62,108 nucleotides of DNA from an uncultured SAR86 cluster bacterium (GCA_902556355.1 CACDVW010000003.1:1-62108); one strand, 5' to 3'; counted from the first letter of the stretch, positions 24,224 to 49,586 are shown. The notes: a model not told the origin generated them from the letters alone. A program made the numbers and translations.

Positions 24224-24225
24224 TA

Positions 24226-24252: not shown

Positions 24253-24264
24253 ATGTTTATTAAC

Positions 24265-24999: not shown

Positions 25000-25076
25000 C
25001 CTCTCTCCTTTAAAAATGTAATAAGACTTAAGTTTATATTTTTTATAAGTTAATGAAAGGATTTGAAAAGATTAAT

Positions 25077-26867: not shown

Positions 26868-26907
26868 GTTATTAGTGTTTTAAAAAAGTGGGGATTATAA
26901 TCTTAAA

Positions 26908-28182: not shown

Positions 28183-28243
28183 TCTGTACCTAATAAACAC
28201 AAAAGCATAAAATCTACAAAAATTAATTATAAGGAGCTTAAGA

Positions 28244-29209: not shown

Positions 29210-29227
29210 TATTATCCGGAGGAGAGA

Positions 29228-29401
29228 ATGGAAACAATAATATTAATTTTAATAGGGGCTGTTGCTGGGGGAGCAATTGTTAATATGATGTATGTATGCA
29301 AGGAAGGCAGAAGTGGATCTAAAGGCATAACAGAAGAATATGTAACAGAGTCAGGTATAAAGAGAACAGCAAAAAAAGACAGAGAAGAATATATCGTTTA
29401 A
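29228..29401 (+). CDS. small membrane protein, 57 aa (not in ORF track)
   Basis: Hand translation gives METIILILIGAVAGGAIVNMMYVCKEGRSGSKGITEEYVTESGIKRTAKKDREEYIV. GGAGGAGAGA lies directly upstream of the ATG. Confidence 0.4.
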   Translation: METIILILIGAVAGGAIVNMMYVCKEGRSGSKGITEEYVTESGIKRTAKKDREEYIV

Positions 29402-29410
29402 AAATATTAA

Positions 29411-29605
29411 ATGACCAAAAGAAATTTAAGAGAGCAATTCATAGAAGGCTGGAATAAATTATTTGGTAGAGAAGAAGATAAAACAAAACTAAGAACACAA
29501 AGTCTTTTTAGAGCAAAGAATTCTGTCACCAATCTCAATGCTGGCACGCCTCATGACTGGGAAGACTTAAAAAAATATCAAGAAGAAGAAAAGAATTATG
29601 ACTAA
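29411..29605 (+). CDS. hypothetical charged protein, 64 aa
   Basis: ORF only. Its stop overlaps the downstream dehydrogenase start by 8 nt. Confidence 0.4.
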   Translation: MTKRNLREQFIEGWNKLFGREEDKTKLRTQSLFRAKNSVTNLNAGTPHDWEDLKKYQEEEKNYD

Positions 29606-34477: not shown

Positions 34478-35562
34478 TGAAAAAAATTTTAACGTTTGTT
34501 TTATTGATTGGATTAATTTCTGGCTGTTCTGGTGAACAAGAGTCATCCAACTCTGCGGATGCTGAATATAAAACATACAAATGGAGGCTCGTTACATCCT
34601 GGCCAAAAAATTATCCAGGCCTTGGAATGGCTCCTGAGAAAATAGCCAATCTTGTTGAAGAGATGAGCAATGGCCAAATGCAGATAACTGTCTATGGTGC
34701 AGGCGAACAGGTTCCTGCTTTCGGGGTCTTTGATGCTGTTTCAAGCGGATCACATCAAATGGGTCATAGTGGAGGGTATTTTTGGAAAGGAAAAGTTCCT
34801 GCTGCTCAGTTTTTTACTAGCGTTCCTTTTGGATTAACAGCAGATGAAATTAATGCTTGGGTAAACAGAGGTGGCGGTTTAGAGTTATGGAGAGAAATAT
34901 ACGAACCCTTCAATATTTATCCTATTCCTGCTGGAAACACTGGAACCCAAATGTTTGGTTGGTTTAACAAAGAAATTAATTCATTGGAGGACGTCAAGGG
35001 TCTTAAAATGCGTATTCCAGGAATCGGAGGAGAGGTTTTAAAAGAAGCAGGCGGAATTCCAGTAACTCTTCCTGGAGGAGAATTATTTACAGCGCTTCAA
35101 ACAGGTGTGATTGATGCTACCGAATGGGTTGGACCATACAATGATCTTACCTTTGGTTTTCATCAAGCTGCAAAATATTACTATTATCCCGGTTGGCACG
35201 AACCTGGACCGATGCTAGAGCTACTAATCAACATGGATGCTTGGAATAGTCTTCCAAAACATCTTCAAGTAATAATCGAAACAGCCACTAAGGCGGTAAA
35301 TCAAGACACCTTAGATGAGTACTTGGCAAGAAATAACCAAGCGCTAACCGAGCTAGTTGAAGTTCATGGTGTTGAGTTGAGAAAACTACCAGATGACGTT
35401 ATTGAAGAATTTAGAGCTATTTCAAATGAAATATTAAGCGATTTAGCAGAAGAAGATGAGGTAATTGGCAAGGTTTATGATTCATATATTGAGTTTAAAA
35501 ATAACGTTACCGAATATCATAAGATTTCTGAAGATTCATTCATTGAAGCTAGAAATAAATAG
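34474..35562 (+). CDS. dctP: TRAP transporter substrate-binding protein (COG4663-like DctP family)
   Basis: The start at Met13 of the track ORF overlaps the uvrD stop (ATGATG). Lipobox-like LISGC, then YKWRLVTSWPKN and GGYFWKGK blocks. Confidence 0.85.
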   Translation: MMKKILTFVLLIGLISGCSGEQESSNSADAEYKTYKWRLVTSWPKNYPGLGMAPEKIANLVEEMSNGQMQITVYGAGEQVPAFGVFDAVSSGSHQMGHSGGYFWKGKVPAAQFFTSVPFGLTADEINAWVNRGGGLELWREIYEPFNIYPIPAGNTGTQMFGWFNKEINSLEDVKGLKMRIPGIGGEVLKEAGGIPVTLPGGELFTALQTGVIDATEWVGPYNDLTFGFHQAAKYYYYPGWHEPGPMLELLINMDAWNSLPKHLQVIIETATKAVNQDTLDEYLARNNQALTELVEVHGVELRKLPDDVIEEFRAISNEILSDLAEEDEVIGKVYDSYIEFKNNVTEYHKISEDSFIEARNK

Positions 35563-37129: not shown

Positions 37130-37247
37130 TTAGGCTTTAAATTTTCTATCAGCTTCAAATTTTTTGTTTTTAAATTTATTGCTTCTGTTTTTTATTGTCA
37201 GTCGATATCTTTATTGATTTTTTAGGAAATATGGATTTTGGAATGGC

Positions 37248-40200
37248 CTAAAAATTTATATCTTCTTCTTGAGCTGTTAAAGAATTAAATCCTAAATTTC
37301 GAACATGTACGTTAGGATAGTGTAATTTTTTTAAATTTCTATATCCCATACTTGTTCTAAGATATTCAATAAAGGCCTTTTTTTCAATACAATCAACACC
37401 ATCAATCTTTTTAATTTTAATTGAGTTAGCTCTTAAAATTTTTAACAATGGCCTGTATTTAATATCGTTTTGATATTTAGGTTTTGTATTTTTTGTAAGA
37501 TAGTCAGAAAGTTCATTTAAGCTACTTATGCTGTGTGTTGTATTACTTTTTCTATATAGAAAATTGGCATCTTGTTTGGTTATATAACTTCTTTCATTAA
37601 AAGAGAACCTATAATCAGCTTGTTTGAAATTGTCATTAATCTCATAGAGATCATATTTTTCTATGAGATTAATATATTTTTTAATCGCTTTTAAGTGATT
37701 TAATGCCTCCCATGTCCCAATTAATGCCTCTAATGGGTATGTGAGTGAAGCCTGTAAAGGAAAAAAACCTACATTTCTTTGAGCAGTTTCTTCTTCAAAG
37801 GTATTAATTATCTTGTCAAAGACTTTTTCATATACCTTTATAAGTGAATTAATTTCATTGTGTATTGTAGTGAATGTTTCTTCTTTATTTTGTATAAAGG
37901 TAAAATCATTATCATTTATTTTATTTTGTAATATATCCAGACTCAAAGGATGTATTTTCTCTTCTTGGGAGTCCCATAAATAGATAAAGTTATTTGTATT
38001 AAATTCGTTTTCCACTGACTTCGAAAACTTGTTTCTTTGACCAGCAAAGTTTGCCATTTTGCTTACTTCATTAGTGCTGACAGAATAAGCAAAAAATCCT
38101 TCTAAAAACGAGATTACTTTAAAAAAACTATCTGCTACACCGTAAAAAGCTCTATGAAAGTTTATAGTTTTTTGAATATTTACAAAATTTTGAATAATTT
38201 CCCAACTAAGAAGTTCTTCAGACAATGCTCCATTTTTTCTTAACCCATGAAGCCTTTTTGTAATTGCTATATCTAAGTCATTGGCTAATGTATTATCTAG
38301 CTGAATAAGACTGACAATATTTAAAACTGAATCAACAATATCATTGTCCCAAATATCCGAATATATTATTTTTAGGGAGAATATTCTTTCTAAAGAGGTA
38401 TTCTTATAATTAGGATAGTAAAAAAATTTTTTGGCTCTTCCTCGTGCAAATATTTTAGTTCTATTGCCATCATTTTTCTCTAAATTATTCATTTCCTCCC
38501 AAACTAGCCACCGTCTTAATTTTTGTATAATAGCGTTTAGCCTATCTTGTATTTTTTGCCTCTTCTTATCATCTTTTATATTTTTTTCTAGCTCCTTCTC
38601 CGTATCATTAAGAATTTGATATAGTGCCTTCATTTCTTTGCCATCATTTTTATATGAATCCGTTAAAAATCTATTTAAATAATTACCTCTTCTTGGAAAG
38701 TTTAAATCTCGCTGCAACACCTGTTGCTGGATATGTAAGCAACTATTGATAAATTCTTCTTTGCTCATATCGCTTTTTGATAAGCCATCTTCTTTAGCAA
38801 TGCGCGGAGAAAGATATTTTTTACTAAATTTTAAATTCAATCTATTTTTCTTTGGTTTTTTTGGAAGTTTTTCATATTCCTGGCCTAACCATTTTTTTTT
38901 CTTTTTCATTTCGATATCAAGCTTATCCCAAAGCATTCTTACTTTTTTTTCTGGTGAAAGATCACCCTTCAATGTATCACTAACAAATTCCTTATAAATA
39001 GTTACAAAATCATTTTTTACTCTTTCATTAGTTTTATTTTTGTACTCTTTAAGTATTTTCTTAAATCTCTTTGTTGTTCGATCTTTTTGAGCAGGATGAT
39101 TTTCGAAATTTTCATAATATGATTGACAAAAATCTAATTGTTCAGCTTTAAGCCATTCGTTAATGTTTGATATTTTGCTTGGATTCGCCTCAATATTTTT
39201 TTTAAAATCATCCAATGCGTTTTTTATTAATTTTTCTTTAGCAAATAATGAGTTTTTTGCTTCAGCATTAACTTGTCTTACATTTTCATTTCCAACACCA
39301 ATAGACTTTTGATCTCTTAATAATATCTTTTCTTGCTGGATACTTTTCCATACCCTTTTGTGAAGATGATTACTGTTTTCAAACACTAGTGGGTCTAAAT
39401 ACCTTCTTGGGAAAAGGTAGTCGTTTGGCATTGAGATATTTAAAGTCATATGTCTTACAAAAGAATCATTATTCGGAGAATAAAATTTACCAGCATCTGT
39501 TATTAAGGTTCTTTTAGAGGCTTCGAGCTGTCCCTTAATAAATTGAAAAGATTCATTAATATTTACTGGCTTAGTATATTTTTTTAATATTGAAAATATC
39601 CTCTTATAATTTTTATTTTGAGAGTCTAAATAATTAAGCATGCAGCTACCAATAGCCCATTGAATAGTTAGTTCAACCGCCTCTGATACAGATTTAAGTG
39701 ATCTTGAATAAATTTTTTTAAATTTCTTTTCTGAATTAAGTGGGAAATCTAAATATCTAAAATACTTATCAACATTAACTATAAAATCGCCTGATACTAA
39801 ATAGTCGGATCCGCCTAGCGTCCTATATTTTTTATCTGTCCAGAATTTTGTCTTAAAATTATTTTTTGAGAAAAATTCATGTAATTTCTTTCTATTTTTG
39901 TCAGTATTTTTAAACCTATACAACCATAAACCTTTATCTTTTATCTGATCGTTTAAATGATTGTTTTTTAAACTATATTTAACCCGTTTTTCTTGAGAGC
40001 TATCTAACTTATACCATTCAGCATCCAATATTAAGTCTTTAGATGTGATTTTTCTGCTAATCCTCCTTAAGAAAAGGTATTTCCATTTATTTTTTGATAA
40101 CACTTTTGCGTTAATAAAACCATTAAATTTACCTCTCCCAACAAAAGATTTTTTGATAGTTACATCAAATATATTTTTACGAATAGTATTTTTATTTTTA

Positions 40201-40997
40201 TATTCTTGAAGATATGCAAGATTACTTTCTAATTTAAATTTTGTTTTAGCACTCTTGTGAGAAAATGATAGTGGAGGGTTCCTATAAAAGCTTTCAGATC
40301 TAGACTCATTTTTAATTTTTCCTGAATATGACCCTAAAATATATAATTTATTTAGATCACAAAGGATATTTTGGCTAGGCTTATCTTCAAAACTACGACC
40401 AATGATATTTTTAGGTAGAACGTCTATATTGTATTTGAGTTTACTCCACTGAATATCTATTAAAGCATCATTAATAATTAAATTATCATTCTCAATATAG
40501 TAGGGAGCAAATATATTTTTTTTTTCAGATGGAAAAATATGGTAGTAAAAATTTTCTTTTATATCTAAGTACTTAAAATTGCCAATTCTGATATCTTTCT
40601 GCTCGTAAAATACTGAGTCTCTAAGCCAATTTCTTTTCTTTTGATTTTCATCAAGAGTCTCCTCATACTGAAAAGTACTGCTAATTACCGCATCAGAAAT
40701 TTTCTTTTTAATGTTATTTTTTTTAATTTCCTTATTGGTATAGCCTAGAAATTTTCCCACATTTAAATAGAGCTGATCTTGAAAGTTCTTACTTAAAAGA
40801 TACTTGCCAAGTATTTCTCTATATTTGTAATTAACGCTGGAAACCCTAACTATTGCTGAGGATAGCTCATGAAAACAACCATCCGGATCTTCATCAGGTG
40901 CAAAAAATTTAGAACGATGACCAGCGCTCTTGTCGATATCTTTATTTAAGTTACTAATGAATTCATTAGAGCTTTCTTTATTAAAAGTTTTAAACAT
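37248..40997 (-). CDS. 1249-aa Lys/Asn/Ile-rich cytoplasmic protein, no recognisable domain
   Basis: An uninterrupted 3.75 kb ORF in about 25 percent G+C DNA, where random ORFs of that length are very unlikely. No signal peptide, TM helix, Walker A or HExxH motif seen. Confidence 0.8.
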   Translation of the reverse strand: MFKTFNKESSNEFISNLNKDIDKSAGHRSKFFAPDEDPDGCFHELSSAIVRVSSVNYKYREILGKYLLSKNFQDQLYLNVGKFLGYTNKEIKKNNIKKKISDAVISSTFQYEETLDENQKKRNWLRDSVFYEQKDIRIGNFKYLDIKENFYYHIFPSEKKNIFAPYYIENDNLIINDALIDIQWSKLKYNIDVLPKNIIGRSFEDKPSQNILCDLNKLYILGSYSGKIKNESRSESFYRNPPLSFSHKSAKTKFKLESNLAYLQEYKNKNTIRKNIFDVTIKKSFVGRGKFNGFINAKVLSKNKWKYLFLRRISRKITSKDLILDAEWYKLDSSQEKRVKYSLKNNHLNDQIKDKGLWLYRFKNTDKNRKKLHEFFSKNNFKTKFWTDKKYRTLGGSDYLVSGDFIVNVDKYFRYLDFPLNSEKKFKKIYSRSLKSVSEAVELTIQWAIGSCMLNYLDSQNKNYKRIFSILKKYTKPVNINESFQFIKGQLEASKRTLITDAGKFYSPNNDSFVRHMTLNISMPNDYLFPRRYLDPLVFENSNHLHKRVWKSIQQEKILLRDQKSIGVGNENVRQVNAEAKNSLFAKEKLIKNALDDFKKNIEANPSKISNINEWLKAEQLDFCQSYYENFENHPAQKDRTTKRFKKILKEYKNKTNERVKNDFVTIYKEFVSDTLKGDLSPEKKVRMLWDKLDIEMKKKKKWLGQEYEKLPKKPKKNRLNLKFSKKYLSPRIAKEDGLSKSDMSKEEFINSCLHIQQQVLQRDLNFPRRGNYLNRFLTDSYKNDGKEMKALYQILNDTEKELEKNIKDDKKRQKIQDRLNAIIQKLRRWLVWEEMNNLEKNDGNRTKIFARGRAKKFFYYPNYKNTSLERIFSLKIIYSDIWDNDIVDSVLNIVSLIQLDNTLANDLDIAITKRLHGLRKNGALSEELLSWEIIQNFVNIQKTINFHRAFYGVADSFFKVISFLEGFFAYSVSTNEVSKMANFAGQRNKFSKSVENEFNTNNFIYLWDSQEEKIHPLSLDILQNKINDNDFTFIQNKEETFTTIHNEINSLIKVYEKVFDKIINTFEEETAQRNVGFFPLQASLTYPLEALIGTWEALNHLKAIKKYINLIEKYDLYEINDNFKQADYRFSFNERSYITKQDANFLYRKSNTTHSISSLNELSDYLTKNTKPKYQNDIKYRPLLKILRANSIKIKKIDGVDCIEKKAFIEYLRTSMGYRNLKKLHYPNVHVRNLGFNSLTAQEEDINF

Positions 40998-41039
40998 TTT
41001 AATTATTTTTGTTTTAGCAGAGTCAAATAATTATATCAA

Positions 41040-41061
41040 AAGGTGCTGTTAACAGCACCTT
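41040..41061. promoter_or_regulatory. perfect 22-bp palindrome AAGGTGCTGTTAACAGCACCTT in the divergent intergenic region
   Basis: Read directly. It is self-complementary around a GTTAAC centre and is the most GC-rich element in the 146-nt gap between the two divergent start codons (40997 and 41144). Confidence 0.5.
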
Positions 41062-41143
41062 ATTAATATTAAATAAAAAACGGAGCAATATCTATTTAAT
41101 TACTACGATATTAATCTAGATTTTAAATTGAGGTATAAAAAAT

Positions 41144-41473
41144 ATGACAAGATTTAAATTAGGTAATACAGAAAACTATGTTGAGGTATCTATAATTTAT
41201 AAGGTTAAAGAAGACCTCGAGAAACAAGAAGTATTTATTATAACGCCTGATCTTTTGGAAAGCTATGAATTGCCTGCATCAAAATTCATATCTTTTTTAC
41301 AACAAAAATTAAATTTTGATGACCCCCATTACTCTTTATGTCATGAGCTCTGGTCCTCTAACAAGGGTTTATTTTCTAAGACATCTGCTAAAGAGGGCGA
41401 TAAATTTGAGTTAAATAAGATTACTCAAATCATCAGCGAAAAAACAGGGGTAATCGATCTAGAAACTAAATAG
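41144..41473 (+). CDS. hypothetical protein, 109 aa (first gene of the plus-strand operon)
   Basis: ORF with GAGGT 8 nt upstream. No recognisable family. Confidence 0.55.
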   Translation: MTRFKLGNTENYVEVSIIYKVKEDLEKQEVFIITPDLLESYELPASKFISFLQQKLNFDDPHYSLCHELWSSNKGLFSKTSAKEGDKFELNKITQIISEKTGVIDLETK

Positions 41474-41492
41474 AAAAGAGGGAGAGTTGATT

Positions 41493-41624
41493 ATGAGAGA
41501 CATTAAGAAAAAATTAGTTGAATTATTAAGTTCAGCAAAAAATCAAAATATTAACAAGATCTATACAAATAAAAGACCTCGCGAGGCTGTTAGATGTATT
41601 TGGAATCTAAGGAGTGAGGCATGA
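41493..41624 (+). CDS. hypothetical basic miniprotein, 43 aa (not in ORF track)
   Basis: Hand translation gives MRDIKKKLVELLSSAKNQNINKIYTNKRPREAVRCIWNLRSEA. GGGAGAG lies 6 nt upstream. The stop overlaps the next start as ATGA. Confidence 0.45.
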   Translation: MRDIKKKLVELLSSAKNQNINKIYTNKRPREAVRCIWNLRSEA

Positions 41625-41806
41625 CTAATAAAAATATAAATTTAATCGAGCACGATGATATTCAATATGACATTGAACTTGACAAATTTATTTGGAAACC
41701 GGGATTCGCTGAAGAAATGAGTGACTATCTTAATTATCAAAATCACGACCATGATTTAGATGAAAAGATTTTTATCTACCAATTTCTTAATCAAAGAAAT
41801 TATTAG
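41621..41806 (+). CDS. hypothetical acidic miniprotein, 61 aa
   Basis: AGGAGTGAGG upstream and an ATGA junction with the preceding ORF. Confidence 0.5.
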   Translation: MTNKNINLIEHDDIQYDIELDKFIWKPGFAEEMSDYLNYQNHDHDLDEKIFIYQFLNQRNY

Positions 41807-41885
41807 TGTTATCAAAGTAGATGGCAGGTCAAGGCCTACATGTTGTCTATTTAATTTAATAACCATAGGCCTAAGGAGAAAAATT

Positions 41886-42680
41886 ATGTCTTTAAAAGAT
41901 GTAAGAGAAGGTTTGAAGGTAGCTGGATGCTTAATATTTGTGGCTTCTTTCTATTTTCTAGTTATTAAAAATGAGCCGCTCCATGATGAGGTTGCCAGAA
42001 CAGTAGAGCAATCAAATTCCTGGACGACTGAGAGAAAGTTAAAGCAGACGGACACTTTTTTATTCCATGCTAAAAATAAATTAGAGAATGCTATAGATCA
42101 AGTTACCAAGCAGGTTTTTCAACTTAACAGCTCAGGTACGCTATTAAGCTCTAAACTAAAAGCATCAATTGCTAGAGAGGAGATGTTAGACAAAAAGCTT
42201 GCTGACTATAAATGGCAGTTCAAAACTCTCGAGCAAAAAGCTTCAGATAATCCACCTAGTTATGACATAGCAATGGATATCACAACAGTAAAAAATAAAA
42301 TTACTAAAATGCTGCTTGAAAAAAAACAGCTCAAAGCAACAATAGTAAGTCTGAAGAATCAGCTTGATGAAAACATAAATCAGACGCAAAAATCAGGTTT
42401 AACATTAATTAAGTTAGAAGGTGACCTCAGTTTGGTTTCTAATACCAACGATCTTAATAATATTTTCTCGCCAAGTGGTGGTATAGGGCTAAGCAAATCT
42501 GGTGCAGATGAGCTTGCAGAGTTAATTAGTGATGTTGGGACAATTAACAAACAGCTTAAAGAATCGCAAGATAATAATGTTGTTCCTGATTATATGATCG
42601 ATGCATATAAAGATACAGATGCTTTATTTGACTCATTTATAAATAGTGATGATACCAAAACTATCAATATAGGAGGGTAA
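41886..42680 (+). CDS. N-terminally TM-anchored coiled-coil protein, 264 aa
   Basis: I prefer the start at Met43 of the track ORF because AAGGAG lies 7 nt upstream. LKVAGCLIFVASFYFLVI forms the anchor, followed by heptad-rich sequence. Confidence 0.6.
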   Translation: MSLKDVREGLKVAGCLIFVASFYFLVIKNEPLHDEVARTVEQSNSWTTERKLKQTDTFLFHAKNKLENAIDQVTKQVFQLNSSGTLLSSKLKASIAREEMLDKKLADYKWQFKTLEQKASDNPPSYDIAMDITTVKNKITKMLLEKKQLKATIVSLKNQLDENINQTQKSGLTLIKLEGDLSLVSNTNDLNNIFSPSGGIGLSKSGADELAELISDVGTINKQLKESQDNNVVPDYMIDAYKDTDALFDSFINSDDTKTINIGG

Positions 42681-42686
42681 TTAAAA

Positions 42687-44426
42687 ATGAGCTCTCCTAT
42701 AATTAATGAAAGAGAAATAAATCAATCTATAAGATTATCAAAGATTCTTTTCTTTTGGGCTATTCTTATAGAATTACTGATTGTATCAATGGGCTGGACG
42801 GCATCATATATATCAGGAAATAGGTCTCTTTCGATTCCTACCTTATTGCTAAGCACACTAGCTTTAGGAGAGCTCACTTCACTTTGGTCTACGGAGGTTT
42901 TTGCCGAGCAAATAAGAAGAAAACGAAGGTATTTAATTAAATTCTGTTCGTTATTTGCAGTCCTTATAGCTATGAGTTTTACAGTTACCAATTTGGGTCA
43001 TATTGCAATGATTGTAGAAAGTCATGAGTCTAGTAAGCTAGAAGGATATCTAATTGATAAAAACAGGATCGAAGATGAAAATTTAACTACTCATCGTGAA
43101 ATAGAAATACAAAAATCCAAAATATTATCACTTCAAGCCCAACATAATAATGACGAATTCCTTCAGGCAACTAAGGATGAACTAGATGAGATCCAGGTTA
43201 CTGAAGAAAAAATTTTTAAAAATATAGATCAAATAAAAGCACAAAATTTTGCTGATGAAAAATCTACCCAAAATTACTTGATTAATTTTAATGAAAAGAA
43301 GCTTAGAGAATTAAAAAGTACCTTCAAGGAGATAGACGATAGATATTTGCAGGAACTGGAAAAGCTTCAAGATGACCGATTTGAAGAGCTAGCTCTTTCT
43401 AGCTGGCGCCAAAAAAATAACACTAAGACTAGGTATGACCAGCTTAGGGCCAATTTAGATAATAAATATAAATTACAAAAAGCTCCTATAGAAAAAGAAA
43501 TAGATAGTCTCAATAAAGAAGTTGCTAAAGCAAAAAATTTATTAGTAAGTTATGCATCCCTCTCACCAGAAAGCATTGAATTAATAAAAAGTCAGAATCT
43601 AAAATTGCAAAATTTAAAAAGTGAAAAAGAAAAACTTGTTGATCAAAAATCTAATTTTTACAAAGACAATAAAGACGATGCTTTCTCATTTAAAAGAGAA
43701 ATCGATAATTTACAACAGATATTAAATGAAAATGATCAGCAACTTTCAAGAATTGAGACAAAGGAAAGGGAATTCAAAAAAACAAGTTGGCTTGTGAAAC
43801 TAGCTAGTAATTATTATGCAAAAAGCACCTCATCTATATCGCTTAGCGAATTCAAATCATTTGCTTACTATTTTGTTCTTATATCTTGTATAGGGTTAGC
43901 TCTGCTCCCAAAAATTTTGGTATTTTTATCGGTGCTCGTAAAAAGTAGCGATCATGATGATCGCACAGAAAAAAAAGATAACTACATTTCTAAAAGTATT
44001 AATTCTTTGGCTAAAGCAATCACAGACTATTCAGAATCTACCAAAAAGATTAAAAAGGCTAAGAAAATTGCAATGCTTGAAGTTGAAGCCATCAAAAGCG
44101 AATCACATAAAAAGATTGATGATAACAACTCTAAAAATGATAAAGAAATAGCAGAAAAAAATAAAAAAATAGCAAATCTTACTTCGGAGATTCTAGTACT
44201 TAAACATGCAAGAAAGAATGACAAACAAATTACTGAATTTTTAAAAAAGCATAAAGAAGTTTTAAATAAACTAGAAGAACTTAAAAGCGTATCTAAAAAA
44301 ACCCCTAACAATAATATTGTGAAAAAACTTATCCCTGTGAATATCTATCAGGAAATGCTTAAGGAGCTAAGCATAGACAGGGAGAGTATAGGCAAGAACA
44401 TTCAACTTAATAAAAAAAAACAATAA
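42687..44426 (+). CDS. polytopic membrane protein with two long coiled-coil regions, 579 aa
   Basis: Three N-terminal helices, about 270 aa rich in K/E/Q/L heptads, a hydrophobic hairpin FAYYFVLISCIGLALLPKILVFLSVLV, then a second K/E-rich coil. Confidence 0.7.
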   Translation: MSSPIINEREINQSIRLSKILFFWAILIELLIVSMGWTASYISGNRSLSIPTLLLSTLALGELTSLWSTEVFAEQIRRKRRYLIKFCSLFAVLIAMSFTVTNLGHIAMIVESHESSKLEGYLIDKNRIEDENLTTHREIEIQKSKILSLQAQHNNDEFLQATKDELDEIQVTEEKIFKNIDQIKAQNFADEKSTQNYLINFNEKKLRELKSTFKEIDDRYLQELEKLQDDRFEELALSSWRQKNNTKTRYDQLRANLDNKYKLQKAPIEKEIDSLNKEVAKAKNLLVSYASLSPESIELIKSQNLKLQNLKSEKEKLVDQKSNFYKDNKDDAFSFKREIDNLQQILNENDQQLSRIETKEREFKKTSWLVKLASNYYAKSTSSISLSEFKSFAYYFVLISCIGLALLPKILVFLSVLVKSSDHDDRTEKKDNYISKSINSLAKAITDYSESTKKIKKAKKIAMLEVEAIKSESHKKIDDNNSKNDKEIAEKNKKIANLTSEILVLKHARKNDKQITEFLKKHKEVLNKLEELKSVSKKTPNNNIVKKLIPVNIYQEMLKELSIDRESIGKNIQLNKKKQ

Positions 44427-44435
44427 GGAACAAAA

Positions 44436-44678
44436 ATGCAAGAATCGACACAAGAAATTTTTAATAAAGAACAAAATCAATTTGTTGAATTGGATACCGA
44501 ATTTATTGAAAGTTATTTTGAATCCAAGCATCGCCAAAAAGAGTTAGAGCTAGATAGAGTAGAAAAACTAAATAATCTCCTGGAAACTGCCAAATTCGCA
44601 ATTAAGGGATTAATCATTTTATCTGGTTTTGTAATCTTTTTTCATTATTTGCCTGAAATTATAAATTTACATAGGTAA
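44436..44678 (+). CDS. tail-anchored small protein, 80 aa
   Basis: Acidic N-terminal half and a C-terminal helix GLIILSGFVIFFHYL. It starts 9 nt after the upstream stop. Confidence 0.5.
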   Translation: MQESTQEIFNKEQNQFVELDTEFIESYFESKHRQKELELDRVEKLNNLLETAKFAIKGLIILSGFVIFFHYLPEIINLHR

Positions 44679-44694
44679 CGGATAGGGAGGAACT

Positions 44695-45144
44695 GTGGAT
44701 TACCCAAATTTAACCGTAGTAAACAATCAAGTAGTTAAGATAACCTCTGTTGAGGTAAATATTCCAATTGAATCCTCTGATGAGAATATAAGCTTTATAT
44801 CTTCAAGCAGCCACATTATTTTTCTAGCTATAAATCAAAATTCCATAAAAAAAATCTACTCTTATGATGACTGGGAAAAGAATTTATTTCTTGCCATTTA
44901 TTACTGCAAAGAATTAACAGATATACAAAAGTGTCAATTTGAAAGATGGTCTACTTATTTTATTAGCTTCAATTTTAAAACATGGAATAAAGCAACTAAG
45001 AACGAAACAAATAACTTTATATCTGATAAGAAAAATCAGCTTTTCGAAGTCAGTCAAGAGTTACAAAAGAAGAAGATCATAGAAAAATACGAACATATTA
45101 GAGATTCAAATAAAAATTTATTCAGAAAACTGACAGAGAGTTAA
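44695..45144 (+). CDS. hypothetical soluble protein, 149 aa
   Basis: GTG start with GGGAGG 4 nt upstream. No recognisable family. Confidence 0.5.
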   Translation: MDYPNLTVVNNQVVKITSVEVNIPIESSDENISFISSSSHIIFLAINQNSIKKIYSYDDWEKNLFLAIYYCKELTDIQKCQFERWSTYFISFNFKTWNKATKNETNNFISDKKNQLFEVSQELQKKKIIEKYEHIRDSNKNLFRKLTES

Positions 45145-45150
45145 AAAAAT

Positions 45151-46896
45151 ATGATGGAAAATTACAGAAAAGGAATTACTCAAGCTTCGTTAAACCTTTA
45201 TACATGGAAAATTATTGCATTAGAGATTTTATTTATTTCTATAGCTTTTGGCGCATACATGGAGTCGATTTATGTTTTTGGCATATCTTTATTCATTTTC
45301 CTGCTACTTTTTTATGTCAAATCAACAGCTATATATGTATCAACTTTATTTTCAATAATATGGGCTCTTATCCCATCTAGCATACTAAGCAATATAAAAA
45401 ATGTTGAGTTTTATTCATCTTTGCATATATTACTTCAATCCCCTGTGTCCCAAGTTTTTGCAATAATAATTTTTTTTATTGCTTTTTATCTTCACAAATC
45501 AACCTCAGATTTTTTTCACGATGCTTTGTACCCAGTAATGCAACCCTTCGTCAATATATTTAAAGGAAGAAAAAATAAAAAGAATTCACAAAATAAAAGA
45601 AATAGGACCAAAATTAAGTATGACAAAATCTTGAATTTTATTTCTGATGAAAAAGTGCATCCTCACAATCTTAGACTATTCCTAGAAAAAAATGGCTTCA
45701 GCCTATATCAAACGAATGAGGATAGGAATTTTGAAAAAAAGATCATATTCAACGATAAAGGGATTATTAAGTTTTATAACTTAGTTGAAACTAAACGATG
45801 GATTACAAAATTTATACAAAAATCTACTTCAAACCCAGAAAAGCTTTTAGATACATGGGTTAAGTTTTCTGATATCGCATTAAAAAGACAAGTTATTGAT
45901 CATTTACAAGTTTATTCATCGTTAAAATTTAATAATACTAAAAGCTTAGAGCTATTAAGAGATAATGAACAAAAATGCTATTTAAAGTTCAAAAATGGAA
46001 TTGTTAGAGTTTCTAGTGATTCAATAGTTTTTTCCCAGTACTCAGATTTGTCTAAATCTGTTTTTGAATCGTCTATTATTCCAAGAAACTTTTCTGGCAT
46101 ATCTAAATTAACGAATCCCTCACAATCACAACCAGGGAATAAAAAACTATTTGAGAAATTTGTTGAAAAAAGTGTTCTATCAAGCATACCCAATGCCGAA
46201 AAAGATAATTGGCGCGATGAGTATGTTTTTGATGAAACTGCAAAAGCATCCCTTACATCGCTAAAAACAGCCCTTGGTTATTTGGTTCACTCATATAATA
46301 ATCCATCTACCTCTAAGGCTGTTTTCTTTGTAGATAGGTTTTCATCTAATGGTAAATCAAATGGTGGTACTGGCAAAAGTCTGATAATAAGTAGCCTTGA
46401 AAATATTTTAGTGCAGTCAAAACAAGATGGAAAAAAATATAGAGATAATCCAAATCAGGGTGGAAGGTTTCAATTTTCAAATGTTGATTATGAGACTCAA
46501 AATATATTTATTGATGATTTAAAACAAAACTTTGATATTGAAAGTATATTTACTATGGTAACTGGTGACATTGAGATTGAGCGCAAAGGGCAAAATAAAT
46601 TTATAATTCCTAAAAATGAACGACCGAAATTTGCTCTAACATCAAATTTTCCAATTCCGATAAAAGGCACAAGTTACTCAAGACGCATTCATCAAGTTGA
46701 GCTAGGAAGCTATTGGAATAGATGCATAAACGAAGGCAGCAAACCAAAAGATGAAATTGGCGGAGAGCTGTTTGGAAATAATTTTTCTAAACATGACTGG
46801 GACGATTTTTATATTTTTATTATTAATTGTGTTCAAGATTATTTAAGGCTAGGTCTTGTAGATGTTCAAAAACTAACGAGTCATCAAGATGATTAA
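45151..46896 (+). CDS. membrane-anchored D5_N/SF3-helicase-like (P4/VirE-type) P-loop NTPase, 581 aa
   Basis: About four TM helices span aa 16-115. CYLKFKNGIVRV resembles the D5_N block. LGYLVHS...VFFVD...GGTGKS is Walker A (nt 46363-46380), NIFIDDL is Walker B (46501-46521) and FALTSN is SF3 motif C (46630-46647). Confidence 0.7.
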   Translation: MMENYRKGITQASLNLYTWKIIALEILFISIAFGAYMESIYVFGISLFIFLLLFYVKSTAIYVSTLFSIIWALIPSSILSNIKNVEFYSSLHILLQSPVSQVFAIIIFFIAFYLHKSTSDFFHDALYPVMQPFVNIFKGRKNKKNSQNKRNRTKIKYDKILNFISDEKVHPHNLRLFLEKNGFSLYQTNEDRNFEKKIIFNDKGIIKFYNLVETKRWITKFIQKSTSNPEKLLDTWVKFSDIALKRQVIDHLQVYSSLKFNNTKSLELLRDNEQKCYLKFKNGIVRVSSDSIVFSQYSDLSKSVFESSIIPRNFSGISKLTNPSQSQPGNKKLFEKFVEKSVLSSIPNAEKDNWRDEYVFDETAKASLTSLKTALGYLVHSYNNPSTSKAVFFVDRFSSNGKSNGGTGKSLIISSLENILVQSKQDGKKYRDNPNQGGRFQFSNVDYETQNIFIDDLKQNFDIESIFTMVTGDIEIERKGQNKFIIPKNERPKFALTSNFPIPIKGTSYSRRIHQVELGSYWNRCINEGSKPKDEIGGELFGNNFSKHDWDDFYIFIINCVQDYLRLGLVDVQKLTSHQDD

Positions 46897-47740
46897 TTCA
46901 GGATTAATAAAATTAAAAAATTCTGACAAAAAGATTGTATGGTATTTTTTTGCAGAAATAATATTTATTTCAAGTTTAATTGCTTCAACCTATAGTAATC
47001 CTTATTTGTTTTTAATCTCAATTTTAGCCATAACATTGTTAATATATTTTGAGTCAACTTCTATATATACCTCTTTATTTTTATCTGTTTTTTGTGCTTT
47101 AGTACCTTTTATGGCTCTGAGTGCTATTTTGGGATTGAATTTTTTTCAATCATATGAAGGTTTTATATCAAGCTCAGGATCAAAAATTTTGATTTTTATA
47201 TTGTTCTGTATATCATTTTATTTTCATCTTCACTCAAGAATTATTATAAGAAATTTTTATGAACCATTTTTTAAGAAAATTAGATTTTATATACCGATTA
47301 GAAATGAAAAATTTCATATAAAGATTTATGGATCCTCATTAAACACGCCAAAAGTAAAAAGATATGTGAATGATATAATGTTCTACCTTATGCCTTTCTA
47401 TGGCGAAGATAAAAACATAATTATCAAAGAAACTGGCTGTATTAATTCTAAGGACACAGAATCGGGTTATGCTCTTGGTAATTGTGTGTATGACAATGAG
47501 AATACAGTTGTTATAAACATATCAGAATATAACTCTATGCAAAGAACAAAACAAAGTATGGATAGTAAAATTAAAACCCTTGCTCATGAACTAGTTCATG
47601 CAAAACAGTTTTTAAAAGGTGAGCTGAATGGAGAATATTGGCATGGAAAAAAATATGAAAATTTAGTATGGGAAGATAGACCGTGGGAAAAAGAGGCAGT
47701 TCTGCTTGAAAAAAAATTATTTAATAAGCACTGGTATTGA
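46889..47740 (+). CDS. membrane-anchored HExxH zinc-metallopeptidase-like protein, 283 aa
   Basis: The N-terminal 4-TM module is paralogous to that of the preceding gene. The C-terminal LAHELVHAKQ has HELVH at nt 47585-47599 and a downstream PWEKEA that could supply the third ligand. It overlaps the upstream gene by 8 nt. Confidence 0.65.
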   Translation: MINSGLIKLKNSDKKIVWYFFAEIIFISSLIASTYSNPYLFLISILAITLLIYFESTSIYTSLFLSVFCALVPFMALSAILGLNFFQSYEGFISSSGSKILIFILFCISFYFHLHSRIIIRNFYEPFFKKIRFYIPIRNEKFHIKIYGSSLNTPKVKRYVNDIMFYLMPFYGEDKNIIIKETGCINSKDTESGYALGNCVYDNENTVVINISEYNSMQRTKQSMDSKIKTLAHELVHAKQFLKGELNGEYWHGKKYENLVWEDRPWEKEAVLLEKKLFNKHWY

Positions 47741-47784
47741 GCATCTGATAAATTAAGATAATCGCATTTTAAATTTTACCCTGG

Positions 47785-49122
47785 TCATATTACCAAAAAT
47801 GGCAGTGCTAAGACTGATACCAAAACCACTAATTGAATAATGATAAATGGTATGACACCCCTATAAATGTCTAATGTCTGTATGGATTCATCTGCAACGC
47901 CTCTTAAGTAAAACAATGAAAAACCAAAGGGCGGTGTTAAGAAAGAAGTTTGCAGGTTAATTGCAATTAGAATTGCTAACCAGACTGGATCAAAACCCAT
48001 CATCAATAGAGGTGGGGCGACCAAAGGAACAATTACATAGCAAATTTCAATAAAATCTAAAATAAATCCAAGCAAGAAAACAAAAATTAAAACAAAAATT
48101 AATGCTGTATATGGCCCTCCAGGGAGAGAGCCAAACACCAAATCAATTAAATCATCTCCACCAACTCCTCTAAAAATTAGTGAAAAAATAGAAGCACTAA
48201 TTAATATTGTGAAGATCATTGTTGAGACTATTGCAGTTTTCTTACTAGTTTCTTTTATAAAGCCTAAAGATAACTTGCCGTTAATAAGAACTATTAAAAG
48301 TGCACCAGCAGCTCCAATAGCAGATGCCTCTGTTGGTGTTGCTATTCCAGCAATAATAGAACCTAAAACCAAAATAATTAAAAGTAATGGCAAGGCAAGA
48401 GTCTTAAGAATATTTTTGAATGATGCTGATTTTGCTTCTGGCTCAAACAAGATATTTGGATTTTTATAGTTTTGATAGATTGTATAAATAAGATACCCAA
48501 GACAAATCATAATTCCAGGTACTATGGCGCCAATAAATAAATCTCCAACAGTAACAGTTTGTTGAGAAAAAATACCCATGTTGTTTTGAGCTCTTTGATA
48601 TGCATTAGACATAACATCACCCAAAAGCACTAATGCAATTGAAGGAGGAATGATCTGTCCTAAGGTTCCCGTTGATGCAACTAGGCCTGATGAGAAATCT
48701 TTTTTATAGCCCTGTTGAATCAGAACTGGCAAAGACATAAGACCCATTGTTACAACTGTTGCGCCAACAATACCTGTGCTTGCTGCTAATAGAGCACCAA
48801 CAGAAATTATAGAAATGCTTAGACCGCCTCTAATATTCTTAAATGCTAAAGCCATGTTTTCTAACATTTTTGCAGCAATGCCCGACCTTTCAAGAACAGT
48901 CCCCATAAATATAAATAAGGGAACTGCGAGAAGAGTCACATTATTCATAATCCCAAATATTCTTAGAGGAATACTTTTCAAAATTGATTCATCAAATATT
49001 CCGAACGGTATACAGATTAGAGCAAATAGAATAGAGACCCCAGAAAGTGTAAATGCAACCGGATACCCAAATAAAAGAGCTAGACATATTAAAACTAAAA
49101 GTAATAAAGGAATTATTTCCAT
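47785..49122 (-). CDS. dctM: TRAP transporter large permease (DctM family)
   Basis: 445 aa and about 12 TM helices. The GYPVAFTLSG opening and FGFSLFYLRGV are typical of TRAP DctM (COG4664-like). Confidence 0.9.
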   Translation of the reverse strand: MEIIPLLLLVLICLALLFGYPVAFTLSGVSILFALICIPFGIFDESILKSIPLRIFGIMNNVTLLAVPLFIFMGTVLERSGIAAKMLENMALAFKNIRGGLSISIISVGALLAASTGIVGATVVTMGLMSLPVLIQQGYKKDFSSGLVASTGTLGQIIPPSIALVLLGDVMSNAYQRAQNNMGIFSQQTVTVGDLFIGAIVPGIMICLGYLIYTIYQNYKNPNILFEPEAKSASFKNILKTLALPLLLIILVLGSIIAGIATPTEASAIGAAGALLIVLINGKLSLGFIKETSKKTAIVSTMIFTILISASIFSLIFRGVGGDDLIDLVFGSLPGGPYTALIFVLIFVFLLGFILDFIEICYVIVPLVAPPLLMMGFDPVWLAILIAINLQTSFLTPPFGFSLFYLRGVADESIQTLDIYRGVIPFIIIQLVVLVSVLALPFLVI

Positions 49123-49586
49123 TTTGTTTTTATAAATTGATTAATTAGCGCTGTTAAAAGCGTTAGTGGGAATAGAACTATCAATGTTTTTTGAATGTAT
49201 ACATATGCCAAACCACCTGCTTCTGTAGATGTTTCACTCATTTTCCAAGAAGCTTCGATTGTTTCAATAGAATAAAAAAATGTAACAGCAATTAGAGGTA
49301 GTAAAAACAATAAACCTAATACACTATTTATATTTTTTTTATACCTATCAGATGCATTTCTGTAGAAAATATCAACTCTTACATGTTCATCATGATTCAT
49401 TACGTAACCAGCACAACCAAGAAAAACCAATGCATGAAAGTACATCACTAACTCTTGGATGCCAGTTCTTCCAATACCAAAAAAATACCTACTAATAATT
49501 ACAAATACCATCAAAGCAACCATAACTGGTATTAGGTAAGATATTTTTTCACCTACAAAATTTATATACTTTTCTAGAACTTTCAT
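49113..49586 (-). CDS. dctQ: TRAP transporter small permease (DctQ family)
   Basis: 157 aa and four TM helices. It overlaps the dctM start by 10 nt. Confidence 0.8.
   Translation of the reverse strand: MKVLEKYINFVGEKISYLIPVMVALMVFVIISRYFFGIGRTGIQELVMYFHALVFLGCAGYVMNHDEHVRVDIFYRNASDRYKKNINSVLGLLFLLPLIAVTFFYSIETIEASWKMSETSTEAGGLAYVYIQKTLIVLFPLTLLTALINQFIKTKWK

What the first reader, a model, noticed from the sequence alone, without database searches (positions are those of the whole stretch)
37130..47784. 10.6 kb AT-rich island of orphan genes between lipA and dctM: candidate undescribed defence-like or cryptic mobile system
Core genes (uvrD, dctP, lipB, lipA on one side and dctM, dctQ, yaaA on the other) flank ten ORFs that I can hardly assign to any family. 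A 1249-aa protein on the minus strand diverges from a 9-gene plus-strand operon. Gaps in the operon are 6-19 nt, apart from one of 79 nt and two start/stop overlaps, which implies co-translation. My hand spot counts gave 12-18 G+C per 60 nt inside the block, against 16-30 per 60 nt in flanking genes. The encoded proteins are very rich in Lys, Asn and Ile. The only recognisable chemistries are an SF3-type P-loop NTPase and an HExxH peptidase, both membrane-anchored, next to TM coiled-coil proteins. I see no integrase, transposase, tRNA target or long flanking repeats, and no capsid, terminase or conjugation signatures. It therefore matches neither a textbook prophage or ICE nor any named defence system I know (Zorya, Kiwa, Lamassu, Druantia, RADAR and others were considered by architecture).
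Basis: partly seen in the sequence, partly recalled or inferred. Interest (0 to 1): 0.85.

Follow-up and report, generated by a model that had tools for sequence, protein, structure and literature searches.

The report
Orphan membrane-system island in SAR86
A 10.6 kb, ten-gene cassette found only in the abundant ocean bacterium SAR86 is an optional block of DNA that has recently moved between diverged strains; it encodes a membrane-anchored machine matching no described prophage, conjugative element or defence system, and its function is still inferred rather than shown.

Summary
Window 37130-47784 carries ten tightly packed genes and is the most AT-rich 10.6 kb of the window (29.0% against 34.1% G+C). 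The host is a SAR86 gammaproteobacterium.

The block is accessory. A close relative (SAG AG-447-B02) has the lipA and dctM stop codons 2 nt apart. Other SAR86 species hold unrelated small genes at this site.

The same gene order recurs in at least 15 independent marine contigs, nearly always between lipA and dctM, with proteins only 25-65% identical while lipA stays at or above 85%. Two other genomic backgrounds share the island at 97-100% nucleotide identity although their neighbouring core genes are 84-93% identical (dS 0.02-0.07 against 0.4-0.7). That indicates recent horizontal exchange without an integrase or att repeats.

Only two enzymes are recognisable: an SF3/D5-like ATPase (g8) and a SprT/M91-like zinc peptidase (g9). 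Both have phage or mobile-element relatives, and both are fused to one homologous 4-TM anchor. The 1249-aa protein g1 is a sequence and fold orphan (21 hits among 1.84 billion representatives). It is swapped together with g2 in one variant.

PADLOC, Pfam, PHROGs, PDB and BFVD name no known system. My best guess (about 0.45) is a new envelope-anchored conflict or defence system. No function has been shown.

The parts
37130..37247 (.). Left junction: spacer between the lipA stop and the g1 stop
   Evidence: Nucleotide identity between the window and L001 jumps from 84-94% to 97-100% here. In the empty-site relative L004 the lipA stop is followed 2 nt later by the dctM stop. No att-like repeat is shared across loci.
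37248..40997 (-). g1: 1249-aa basic (+66) cytoplasmic orphan protein with a variable N-terminal body and a conserved C-terminal module of about 350 aa
   Evidence: No TM segment. No Pfam, PADLOC or PHROG hit. No PDB sequence hit. The AF2 model (pLDDT 67.7) has no PDB or BFVD fold match. Only 21 hits among 1.84 billion representatives. In L084 it is replaced by a 1100-aa protein that shares only the C-terminal part. In L145 it is shortened to 987 aa.
41040..41061 (.). Conserved 22-bp perfect palindrome AAGGTGCTGTTAACAGCACCTT in the divergent g1/g2 promoter region; a likely operator or regulatory hairpin
   Evidence: It is unique in the window. An equivalent dyad is present in diverged islands with both arms changed together: 6 of 9 pairs change on both sides, 94% of cells are paired, and 0 of 500 shuffles reach this. 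The terminator-like scan also picks it up.
41144..41473 (+). g2: 109-aa acidic soluble protein that co-varies with g1
   Evidence: Present in every island variant at 31-52% identity. It is swapped together with g1 in L084. No family hit.
41493..41624 (+). g2b: 43-aa basic ORF; the right-hand breakpoint of the g1/g2 swap lies inside it
   Evidence: Called as 43-44 aa genes in L001, L002 and L003. Conserved in L084 from 'INKIYTNKRPREAVRCIWNLRSEA' onward.
41621..41806 (+). g3: 61-aa acidic ORF
   Evidence: 97-98% identical in L001 and L084. ORFs of 57-63 aa sit at the same position in L002 and L003.
41886..42680 (+). g4: 264-aa bitopic membrane protein (N-terminal TM followed by a long coiled coil)
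   Evidence: One TM by hydropathy. Conserved in 8 of 8 full islands at 24-64% identity. Absent from the reduced L145 variant.
42687..44426 (+). g5: 579-aa polytopic membrane protein with a coiled coil of about 275 aa between TM3 and TM4
   Evidence: TM segments. Differences between the window and L001 cluster in the coiled coil (residues 111-370: dN 0.125, dS 0.31), while the TM part is almost identical. Absent from L145.
44436..44678 (+). g6: 80-aa tail-anchored membrane protein
   Evidence: C-terminal TM. A 73-aa gene at the same position in L003. The PADLOC PDC-M11B hit (E 0.0044, 15 bits) is judged chance.
44695..45144 (+). g7: 149-aa soluble protein of unknown fold
   Evidence: Present in all variants, including the reduced L145. 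No PDB or family hit.
45151..46896 (+). g8: N-terminal 4-TM anchor, a collar-like middle domain, and an SF3/D5-like (DUF5906) P-loop ATPase; no primase domain
   Evidence: Motifs A, B, C and RR are invariant. phrog_28855 at 1e-35. DUF5906 in 8 of 13 relatives. Top fold hits are the SaPI5 primase-helicase, ASFV PrimPol, E1, Rep and NrS-1 (the model is weak and all E-values are above 1e-3). Soluble relatives at 32-42% identity are helicases of small mobile elements.
46889..47740 (+). g9: the same 4-TM anchor fused to a SprT/M91-like HExxH zinc peptidase
   Evidence: Its N-terminus is 37% identical to the g8 N-terminus over 91 aa, E 1e-13. Pfam M91 at 30.3 bits (cut-off 25) and SprT-like at 23.4 bits. 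Spartan is the best PDB sequence hit, E 0.21. The peptidase domain alone has more than 140 relatives in IMG/VR viral contigs and in a T4-like marine phage. g9 is missing in L087 and reduced to the 4-TM part in L093-L095.
47741..47890 (.). Right junction: 44-nt spacer plus the diverged last codons (about 30) of dctM
   Evidence: Only 53% nucleotide identity to the empty-site relative across 47741-47890, against 94-97% further into dctM. This suggests a recombination breakpoint inside the 3' end of dctM.

Best explanation
Shown:
- The block is a SAR86-restricted accessory cassette of ten co-oriented, tightly coupled genes plus one divergent gene.
- It sits at a variable hot spot between the convergent core genes lipA and dctM.
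- It is present or absent among close relatives and very diverged between species.
- It has recently been exchanged between diverged genomic backgrounds, with no integrase and no att sites. Homologous recombination through the flanks is therefore the likely route.

Inferred:
- The cassette encodes an inner-membrane complex. A hexameric SF3/D5-type ATPase (g8) and a SprT-like zinc peptidase (g9) are held at the cytoplasmic face of the membrane by one shared 4-TM module.
- Coiled-coil membrane proteins (g4, g5, g6) scaffold the complex.
- A large, strongly basic, polymorphic cytoplasmic protein (g1) with its co-varying small partner (g2) acts as the specificity or effector module.
- A palindromic operator or hairpin controls the divergent promoters.

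The most likely role is a conflict system that acts on foreign DNA or its attached proteins at the membrane, as phage or mobile-element defence or entry exclusion. Both enzymes are DNA-associated types taken from phages or mobile elements, and the locus shows the evolutionary pattern of conflict genes.
For: - Accessory: empty site in L004 and unrelated content in eight other SAR86 species.
- Coherent system: the same gene order recurs in L001-L003 and L084-L097 even though g1 falls to 27-29% identity, and dN/dS is 0.16-0.38.
- Recent horizontal exchange: island dS is 0.02-0.07 against 0.38-0.68 for the left-flank genes dctP, lipB and lipA (dctM on the right is 0.09). Identity steps up exactly at 37125.
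- Modular polymorphism: g1/g2 are swapped in L084 while g3-g9 stay 98-100% identical. Other variants are the reduced L145 and L087 and L093-L095.
- Fast divergence relative to the flanks: lipA is 90% and dctM 82% identical where g1 is 39%.
- Shared 4-TM anchor on g8 and g9.
- Intact SF3 motifs and SF3 fold neighbours.
- The HExxH peptidase has many phage relatives.
- Soluble g8 relatives occur in small mobile elements.
- The intergenic palindrome shows compensatory changes.
- No hit to any named system.
Against: - No component matches a known defence protein.
- The lipA-dctM hot spot holds metabolic and DUF805-type genes in other species, so there is no defence-island association.
- g1 has no recognisable nuclease, NTPase or other effector fold.
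- The g8 model is poor over the ATPase core (pLDDT 27-56) and its fold hits do not reach E 1e-3.
- The topology of the g5 coiled coil (periplasmic or cytoplasmic) is ambiguous from charge bias.
- The reduced L145 variant lacks g4, g5, g6 and g8, so the 'machine' is not obligatory for whatever g1, g2, g7 and g9 do.
- No expression or phenotype data exist.
Confidence: 0.45

Rival explanations
1. An unconventional or decayed mobile element: an integrase-less satellite, a cryptic integrative element or a membrane-associated virus-like element. Its genes would serve its own replication or transfer. g8 would be the descendant of its replicative helicase and g1 an element-specific protein.
For: - g8's nearest relatives are helicases of small mobile elements. 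One is L130, an apparently circular 11.8-kb contig with a serine recombinase.
- The best fold neighbour is the SaPI5 satellite primase-helicase.
- The peptidase domain is common in phages.
- G+C is low.
- The island has clearly moved between backgrounds.
- The divergent promoter with a palindrome resembles a switch region.
Against: - No integrase, recombinase, excisionase, primase, Rep, capsid, terminase or T4SS gene.
- No att repeats in any of seven loci and no tRNA.
- Every recovered contig that extends beyond the cassette is chromosomal (lipA/dctM, or dapB in L003/L086), and none is circular.
- Neither g1 nor g8 is found in 2.9 million IMG/VR contigs, and g1 is not in the GenBank phage collection.
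- g8 has lost the primase and the C-terminal extension of its soluble relatives and is tethered to the membrane, which does not fit a replicative helicase.
Confidence: 0.2
2. An envelope-spanning export or DNA-transfer apparatus used for competition or exchange. g8 would be the membrane-anchored motor (analogous in architecture to FtsK/SpoIIIE/TraB or to ABC exporters). g4 and g5 would be periplasm-spanning adaptors and g9 a processing peptidase. g1 would be a polymorphic cargo recognised through its conserved C-terminal module, and g2 its chaperone or immunity partner.
For: - Five of the ten proteins are membrane proteins, two of them with long coiled coils.
- g1 has a variable body and a constant C-terminal module.
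- g2 is small and acidic, co-varies with g1 and is swapped with it.
- Sequence variation in g5 is concentrated in the coiled coil between TM3 and TM4.
Against: - No outer-membrane component, secretin, TolC-like protein, pilin or relaxase.
- SF3 ATPases are known as nucleic-acid motors, not protein exporters (established knowledge of the family).
- g1 has no signal peptide or toxin domain.
- g2 keeps 31-52% identity across unrelated g1 bodies, which is unlike a cognate immunity protein.
- The L145 variant keeps g1, g2, g7 and g9 without the supposed motor and adaptors.
Confidence: 0.15
3. Ordinary lineage-specific envelope genes of SAR86 (core or near-core) that look odd only because the lineage is poorly annotated. 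Alternatively, non-functional filler or an assembly artefact.
For: - The block sits at the same locus in many SAR86 lineages.
- It is under purifying selection.
- The SAR86 proteome in general is AT-rich and K/N/I-rich.
Against: - Empty site in a close relative, and different genes at the site in eight species.
- No island relative was found in 185,579 GTDB species representatives with the g8 profile.
- The island has far lower dS than the adjacent core genes between backgrounds.
- It was assembled independently in many samples, which excludes an artefact.
Confidence: 0.05

Closest known systems
Replacement-type flexible genomic islands of marine bacteria (Alteromonas, SAR11, Prochlorococcus; Lopez-Perez et al. 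2014, PMC4033161, title and abstract seen)
   Same: - A fixed position between conserved core genes.
- Present, absent or very divergent among close strains.
- No integrase; exchange by homologous recombination in the flanks.
- Assemblies break there. Dupont et al. 2012 (PMC3358033) already noted at least one unassemblable hypervariable region in SAR86.
   Different: - Classical replacement islands encode glycosyltransferases and surface polysaccharide genes. This one encodes a fixed-architecture set of orphan membrane proteins, an SF3 ATPase and a peptidase.
- Other species hold unrelated genes at the site, so it also behaves like an additive hot spot.
SF3 / D5-like primase-helicases of phages, satellites and plasmids (DUF5906/PF19263; SaPI5 primase-helicase 7OLA; NrS-1; ASFV C962R; vaccinia D5, PMC9611036)
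   Same: - g8 carries the SF3 motifs A, B and C and an arginine pair.
- Its relatives match DUF5906.
- Its fold neighbours are these proteins.
   Different: - g8 has no primase or PriCT domain and lacks the C-terminal extension of its soluble relatives.
- It has an N-terminal 4-TM anchor instead.
- I found no described SF3 helicase with this architecture, though the search was limited.
SprT/Spartan/Wss1-like and Peptidase_M91 (NleD) zincins; ArdC-type metalloprotease domains of conjugative plasmids (the ArdC comparison is from my own knowledge)
   Same: - HExxH core with a conserved downstream PWExEA.
- Pfam M91 is above its cut-off and SprT-like just below.
- Spartan is the best PDB hit.
- These proteases act on proteins bound to DNA.
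   Different: - g9 is membrane-anchored by 4 TM helices.
- Similarity to Spartan is not significant (E 0.21).
- Its closest relatives are uncharacterised soluble phage proteins (phrog_16532 and phrog_10499).
Membrane-anchored anti-phage systems such as Zorya (ZorAB motor with a long coiled-coil tail plus large cytoplasmic ZorC/D) and Kiwa (4-TM KwaA plus DNA-binding KwaB)
   Same: - General logic: membrane proteins with long coiled coils or 4-TM sensors, encoded next to a large cytoplasmic protein that presumably acts on DNA.
- Accessory and patchy distribution.
   Different: - No PADLOC hit to ZorA-D, KwaA/B or any other model at E <= 1.
- The g4 TM has no MotB/ZorB-type aspartate (seen directly in the sequence).
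- There are ten genes instead of two to four.
- The resemblance is architectural only and recalled from memory.
Phage satellites (PICI, PICMI; PMC10803314) and small integrative elements with D5-like helicases
   Same: - Size of about 10 kb.
- A D5-like helicase relative.
- Marine hosts.
- A divergent regulatory region.
   Different: - No integrase, att sites, primase, Alp/Rpr-type regulators or packaging genes.
- Never seen excised or in viral contig collections.

Membership tests
SF3 (D5-like, DUF5906) helicase/ATPase: g8 | Walker A GxxxxGK[ST], Walker B hhhDD/E, motif C (sensor-1 Asn, 'TxN') within about 100 residues, and an arginine finger | tested here: met
   GGTGKS (405-410), IFIDD (452-456), ALT(S/T)N (495-499) and RR (511-512) are invariant in 13 sequences.
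SF3 (D5-like, DUF5906) helicase/ATPase: g8 | Significant match to the family profile | tested here: inconclusive
   The window protein itself has no PF19263 hit at E <= 0.1. Eight of 13 family members do (best 1.1e-7). phrog_28855 at 1e-35. tblastn hits phage 'DNA primase/TOPRIM' and 'virE' genes.
SF3 (D5-like, DUF5906) helicase/ATPase: g8 | SF3 fold | tested here: inconclusive
   The AF2 model has pLDDT 60.9 and is poor over the ATPase core. The Foldseek top 10 are all SF3 primase-helicases (7OLA prob 0.89, E 9e-3), but none reaches E <= 1e-3.
Primase-helicase of phage, satellite or plasmid replication modules | An N-terminal primase (prim-pol or DnaG-type) and/or PriCT domain fused to, or adjacent to, the helicase | tested here: not met
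   g8 residues 1-135 are a 4-TM domain. There is no primase or PriCT hit in g8 or in any island gene. Distant relatives do carry PF08800, PF08707, PF08708 or PF01807.
SprT-like / Peptidase_M91 zincin: g9 | HExxH catalytic motif and a profile match above the curated threshold | tested here: met
   HELVH is invariant. PF14891 scores 30.3 bits against a cut-off of 25. PF10263 SprT-like scores 23.4 against 25.6, just below.
Prophage | Capsid, portal, terminase or tail genes, plus an integrase and att repeats | tested here: not met
   No such Pfam or PHROG hit, no tRNA, no flanking repeats, and g1 and g8 are not in IMG/VR.
ICE / conjugative or mobilisable element | Relaxase, T4SS ATPases (VirB4/VirD4), an integrase | tested here: not met
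   No hits in Pfam or NCBIfam. The only NTPase is of SF3 type.
Phage satellite (PICI / PICMI type) | Integrase with att sites, a primase-helicase, and helper-responsive regulators or packaging functions | tested here: not met
   Only a helicase-derived domain is present. There is no integrase or att site, and all contexts are chromosomal.
Named anti-phage defence systems (PADLOC-DB 2.0.0, 2023) | At least the signature proteins match the system's HMMs | tested here: not met
   Only two chance-level hits: g6 to PDC-M11B (E 0.0044) and g8 to Cas11 (E 0.055). Newer DefenseFinder or PADLOC releases were not available.
CBASS-type S_4TM membrane effector | Match to PF18159 above its cut-off and association with a SMODS/cyclase gene | tested here: not met
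   16.7 bits against a cut-off of 26.9, in only 1 of 13 family members. There is no cyclase in the island.
Flexible genomic island at a recombination hot spot | The same inter-core-gene position; presence, absence or replacement among relatives; no site-specific recombinase; signs of recombination in the flanks | tested here: met

The most novel reading that the evidence does not exclude
A previously undescribed multi-gene, envelope-anchored immune or exclusion system specific to SAR86. In it a phage-derived SF3 DNA motor and a phage-derived SprT-like protease are tethered to the inner membrane by a common 4-TM module. They would intercept incoming phage or mobile-element DNA, or the proteins attached to it. 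A polymorphic 1,000-1,250-aa orphan protein (g1) with its partner g2 would supply exchangeable specificity or effector function. The cassette spreads through SAR86 populations by flank-mediated homologous recombination.
Probability: 0.35. Interest if true: 0.85.

Novelty: categorically new. Interest (0 to 1): 0.72.

Why it matters
SAR86 is one of the most abundant heterotrophic bacterial lineages in the surface ocean. Its genome is streamlined, and almost nothing is known about how it deals with viruses and mobile DNA.

A 10.6-kb optional cassette is costly for such a genome. This one is under purifying selection and has recently spread across diverged backgrounds, so it is likely to confer a strong, strain-level advantage.

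If it is a defence or exclusion system, it would add a new architecture: enzymes captured from phages and tethered to the membrane, with a swappable giant orphan protein. It would also help explain strain-level virus-host dynamics in the ocean.

Even if the function is different, g1 is a fold and sequence orphan of more than 1,200 residues, and the 4-TM-fused SF3 ATPase appears to be an undescribed domain architecture.

A limit on its reach: the family is very narrow (21 hits among 1.84 billion representative proteins), so it may be a lineage-specific invention rather than a widespread principle.

Tried and rejected
- A GTDB genome scan with the g8 profile found no relative, so taxonomy came from the lipA scan instead.
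- IMG/VR scans for g8 and g1, and tblastn of g1 against GenBank phages, found nothing.
- PDB sequence searches for g1, g8, g9, g5 and g7 gave nothing significant.
- Foldseek of the g1 model against PDB and BFVD gave a best E of 0.08-0.7. I rejected the weak similarity of the beta-rich part to the reovirus sigma1 head as noise.
- Rfam found no RNA family in the island or the window.
- I rejected these weak hits as chance: S_4TM (16.7 bits, 1 of 13 members), PIG-P, ArgoMid, PADLOC PDC-M11B and Cas11.
- The 10-nt direct repeat TTTAAATTTT at both junctions of the window is not an att site, because L002, L085, L089 and L145 have no such repeat.
- The first exhaustive profile search failed because the profile had more than 1,200 positions. 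I repeated it with cropped sequences.
- I looked for a PD-(D/E)xK-like or other catalytic signature among the invariant residues of g1 by eye and found nothing convincing.
- A possible excisionase-like winged-helix at the C-terminus of g1 is only a visual impression and is not claimed.
- Literature searches found no description of this cassette: SAR86 with genomic island and defence; DUF5906; SprT-like with anti-phage and transmembrane.

Full report
**Observation.** NCBIfam confirms uvrD, dctP, lipB and lipA upstream and dctM, dctQ-position and yaaA downstream. The block is 29.0% G+C against 34.1% for the rest of the window. It is the lowest 10.6-kb stretch of the 62 kb, about 5 sd below non-overlapping windows, and the tetranucleotide distance also peaks there. 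The contrast is real but modest. Hydropathy confirms TM segments in g4, g5, g6, g8 and g9. It finds none in g1, which carries a net charge of +66.

**Host and accessory status.** A scan of GTDB species representatives with LipA identifies the host as a SAR86-cluster gammaproteobacterium (99% LipA identity to SAG AG-447-B02, L004).
- In L004 the flanking proteins are 96-99% identical (dctQ and lipB lower, at 90% and 94.5%), and flank DNA is 91-97% identical. There the lipA stop and the convergent dctM stop are 2 nt apart, which is an empty site.
- Eight other SAR86 species carry 0.4-3 kb of unrelated genes at the same junction. These are DUF805-type membrane proteins, lipoproteins, a dehydrogenase and a MarR-like gene.
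- The junction is therefore a variable hot spot and the island is not core.
- The last codons (about 30) of dctM are strongly diverged against L004 (53% identity over 47741-47890 against 94-97% further in). This points to a recombination breakpoint inside dctM.

**The cassette is a conserved unit restricted to SAR86-type sequences.** Word-index searches found 10 relatives of g1 and about 12 full-length relatives of g8, all from marine metagenomes. Their contigs (L001-L003, L084-L097) show the same gene order. This holds although g1 drops to 27-29%, g5 to 24-26% and g8 to 42-59% identity.
- Nearly all of them lie between lipA (85-99%) and dctM (72-100%). One lineage has the cassette next to dapB (L003/L086).
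- An exhaustive HMM search of 1.84 billion representative proteins with a g1 profile returned only 21 hits, many of them fragments.
- The g8 profile found no relative among 185,579 GTDB species representatives.
- Neither g1 nor g8 occurs in IMG/VR, and g1 is absent from GenBank phages.

**Recent horizontal exchange.** Between the window and L001, nucleotide identity is 84-93% across uvrD-lipA. It steps to 97-100% at the island's left border (about 37125) and stays there through dctM.
- Synonymous divergence is 0.66, 0.68 and 0.38 for dctP, lipB and lipA.
- It is 0.02-0.07 for island genes, 0.18 for g5 and 0.09 for dctM.
- L084 tells the same story: lipA DNA is 81-94% identical while g3-g9 are 98-100% identical.
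- Nearly the same island therefore sits in at least three diverged backgrounds.
- dN/dS is 0.16-0.38 in the island against 0.02-0.08 in the flanks. That means purifying but relaxed or diversifying constraint.
- Seven loci share no flanking direct repeat, there is no tRNA, and there is no recombinase. Flank-mediated homologous recombination is the simplest route. This matches the replacement flexible genomic islands described in other marine bacteria (PMC4033161) and the unassemblable hypervariable region noted in SAR86 (PMC3358033).

**Modularity.**
- In L084, g1, the intergenic region, g2 and the 5' half of g2b are replaced by a 1100-aa protein and a 31%-identical g2. The 1100-aa protein shares only its C-terminal part of about 350 aa with g1 (hhalign 96%).
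- L145 (lipA 95%, dctM 80%) has a reduced island: a 987-aa g1, g2, a 91-aa hydrophobic ORF, g9, a 48-aa ORF and g7, followed by two DUF805 genes. It has no g4, g5, g6 or g8.
- L087 lacks g9. L093-L095 keep only the 4-TM part of g9.
- Within g5, differences between the window and L001 cluster in the coiled coil between TM3 and TM4 (dN 0.125, dS 0.31), while the TM segments are nearly identical.

**Anatomy.**
- g8 consists of a 4-TM domain, a middle domain and an SF3 ATPase with invariant motifs A, B, C and RR. Its relatives match DUF5906. The AF2 model is weak (pLDDT 60.9), yet its best PDB neighbours are all SF3 primase-helicases: SaPI5 7OLA, ASFV PrimPol, E1, Rep and NrS-1. None of these is significant.
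- Soluble relatives of g8 (32-42% identity over residues 168-570) are helicases of small mobile elements. They include an apparently circular 11.8-kb contig with a serine recombinase.
- g9 carries the same 4-TM domain (37% identity over 91 aa, E 1e-13) fused to an HExxH peptidase. Pfam M91 is above its cut-off, SprT-like is just below, and Spartan is the best PDB hit at E 0.21.
- The peptidase domain alone has more than 140 relatives in viral contigs and in a T4-like marine phage.
- g4, g5 and g6 are coiled-coil membrane proteins. g2, g2b, g3 and g7 are small soluble proteins with no hits.
- g1 is an orphan. It has no family hit in any of 11 members and no PDB sequence hit. Its AF2 model (pLDDT 67.7, pTM 0.58) has no fold match in PDB or BFVD.

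**Regulatory element.** The 146-nt divergent g1/g2 intergenic region holds a perfect 22-bp palindrome (41040-41061) that is unique in the window. Diverged islands keep a dyad at the same place with both arms changed together. Six of nine pairs change on both sides, 94% of cells are paired, and 0 of 500 shuffles reach this. It is an operator for a dimeric regulator or a conserved hairpin. The data do not separate the two.

**What it is not.** It is not a prophage, ICE or satellite, because no structural, packaging, transfer, integrase or primase genes are present. It is not any system in PADLOC-DB 2.0.0. It is not core. It is not an artefact, because it was assembled independently many times.

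**Mechanism (inference).**
- Two DNA-associated enzyme types of phage or mobile-element origin have been fused to one membrane anchor and embedded among coiled-coil membrane proteins.
- They are encoded next to a large, basic, polymorphic cytoplasmic protein with a co-varying partner.
- The locus is patchy, evolves fast, is modular and has recently swept across backgrounds.
- This combination is what conflict systems look like. I therefore favour a membrane-anchored system that acts on incoming foreign DNA or its attached proteins (confidence about 0.45).
- The rivals are an unconventional mobile element (0.2), an export, DNA-transfer or competition apparatus with g1 as cargo (0.15), and ordinary lineage-specific envelope genes (0.05).
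- The steps from 'membrane complex' onward are inferred. No activity, interaction, topology or phenotype has been shown.

**Novelty.** At the level of the island type (a flexible island at a hot spot) this is a known phenomenon. The encoded system has no described counterpart in the databases and literature I could search.

Noticed in passing
window 41040-41061 (and L089, L085, L086/L003, L002, L090, L091, L092, L094 at the equivalent place): A perfect palindrome, AAGGTGCTGTTAACAGCACCTT, lies between the divergent g1 and g2 starts. Diverged islands keep a dyad there with compensatory changes in both arms, often flanked by an A-run and a T-run like a bidirectional terminator. It could be an operator or a hairpin.
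   Followed up: partly
L130 (Ga0209816_1001815), 1-15652: The contig repeats itself after about 11.8 kb: 312-aa and 105-aa ORFs recur at 1832/13660 and 3418/15246. It therefore looks like a circular 11.8-kb element carrying a serine recombinase, a 440-aa protein with a weak DUF6538 hit, and a soluble DUF5906 helicase related to g8.
   Followed up: partly
L084 557-3859 (-): The alternative 1100-aa g1 allele contains a CxxC...CxxC zinc-ribbon-like motif (CNSCQKKINKSNLRCKNCG) near its C-terminal module. The window's g1 lacks this motif.
   Followed up: no
L005, L007-L013 between lipA and dctM: In other SAR86 species the same junction holds one or two paralogous DUF805-like small membrane proteins (motif FSGRA.R.E[FY]W), lipoproteins and, in L005, a 3-kb metabolic insert. 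L145 has two DUF805 genes next to the reduced island.
   Followed up: partly
window 34438-35562 (dctP) and 47785-49586 (dctM, dctQ): The TRAP transporter genes are split. dctP lies upstream of lipB-lipA on the plus strand, and dctQM converge on lipA from the other side. This arrangement is conserved across SAR86, so the hot spot sits inside a split transporter locus. The uvrD and dctP ORFs overlap by 40 nt.
   Followed up: no
L142-L144 (marine contigs of 12-26 kb): T4-like phage contigs carrying RNR, glutaredoxin, several 2OG-Fe(II) oxygenases and a spanin-like gene encode a 157-aa soluble homologue of the g9 peptidase domain (P0068).
   Followed up: partly
window 24000-30000: A second peak of tetranucleotide deviation with higher G+C (37-39%). 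It coincides with conserved housekeeping genes (typA, an amidohydrolase, a FabK-like reductase) and is not an island.
   Followed up: yes
window 42922-43500 and 44122-44320 (g5), 40125-40700 (g1): Inside the otherwise 97-100% identical window/L001 island there are patches of 83-94% identity with raised dS. This suggests mosaic recombination between island alleles rather than point mutation alone.
   Followed up: partly
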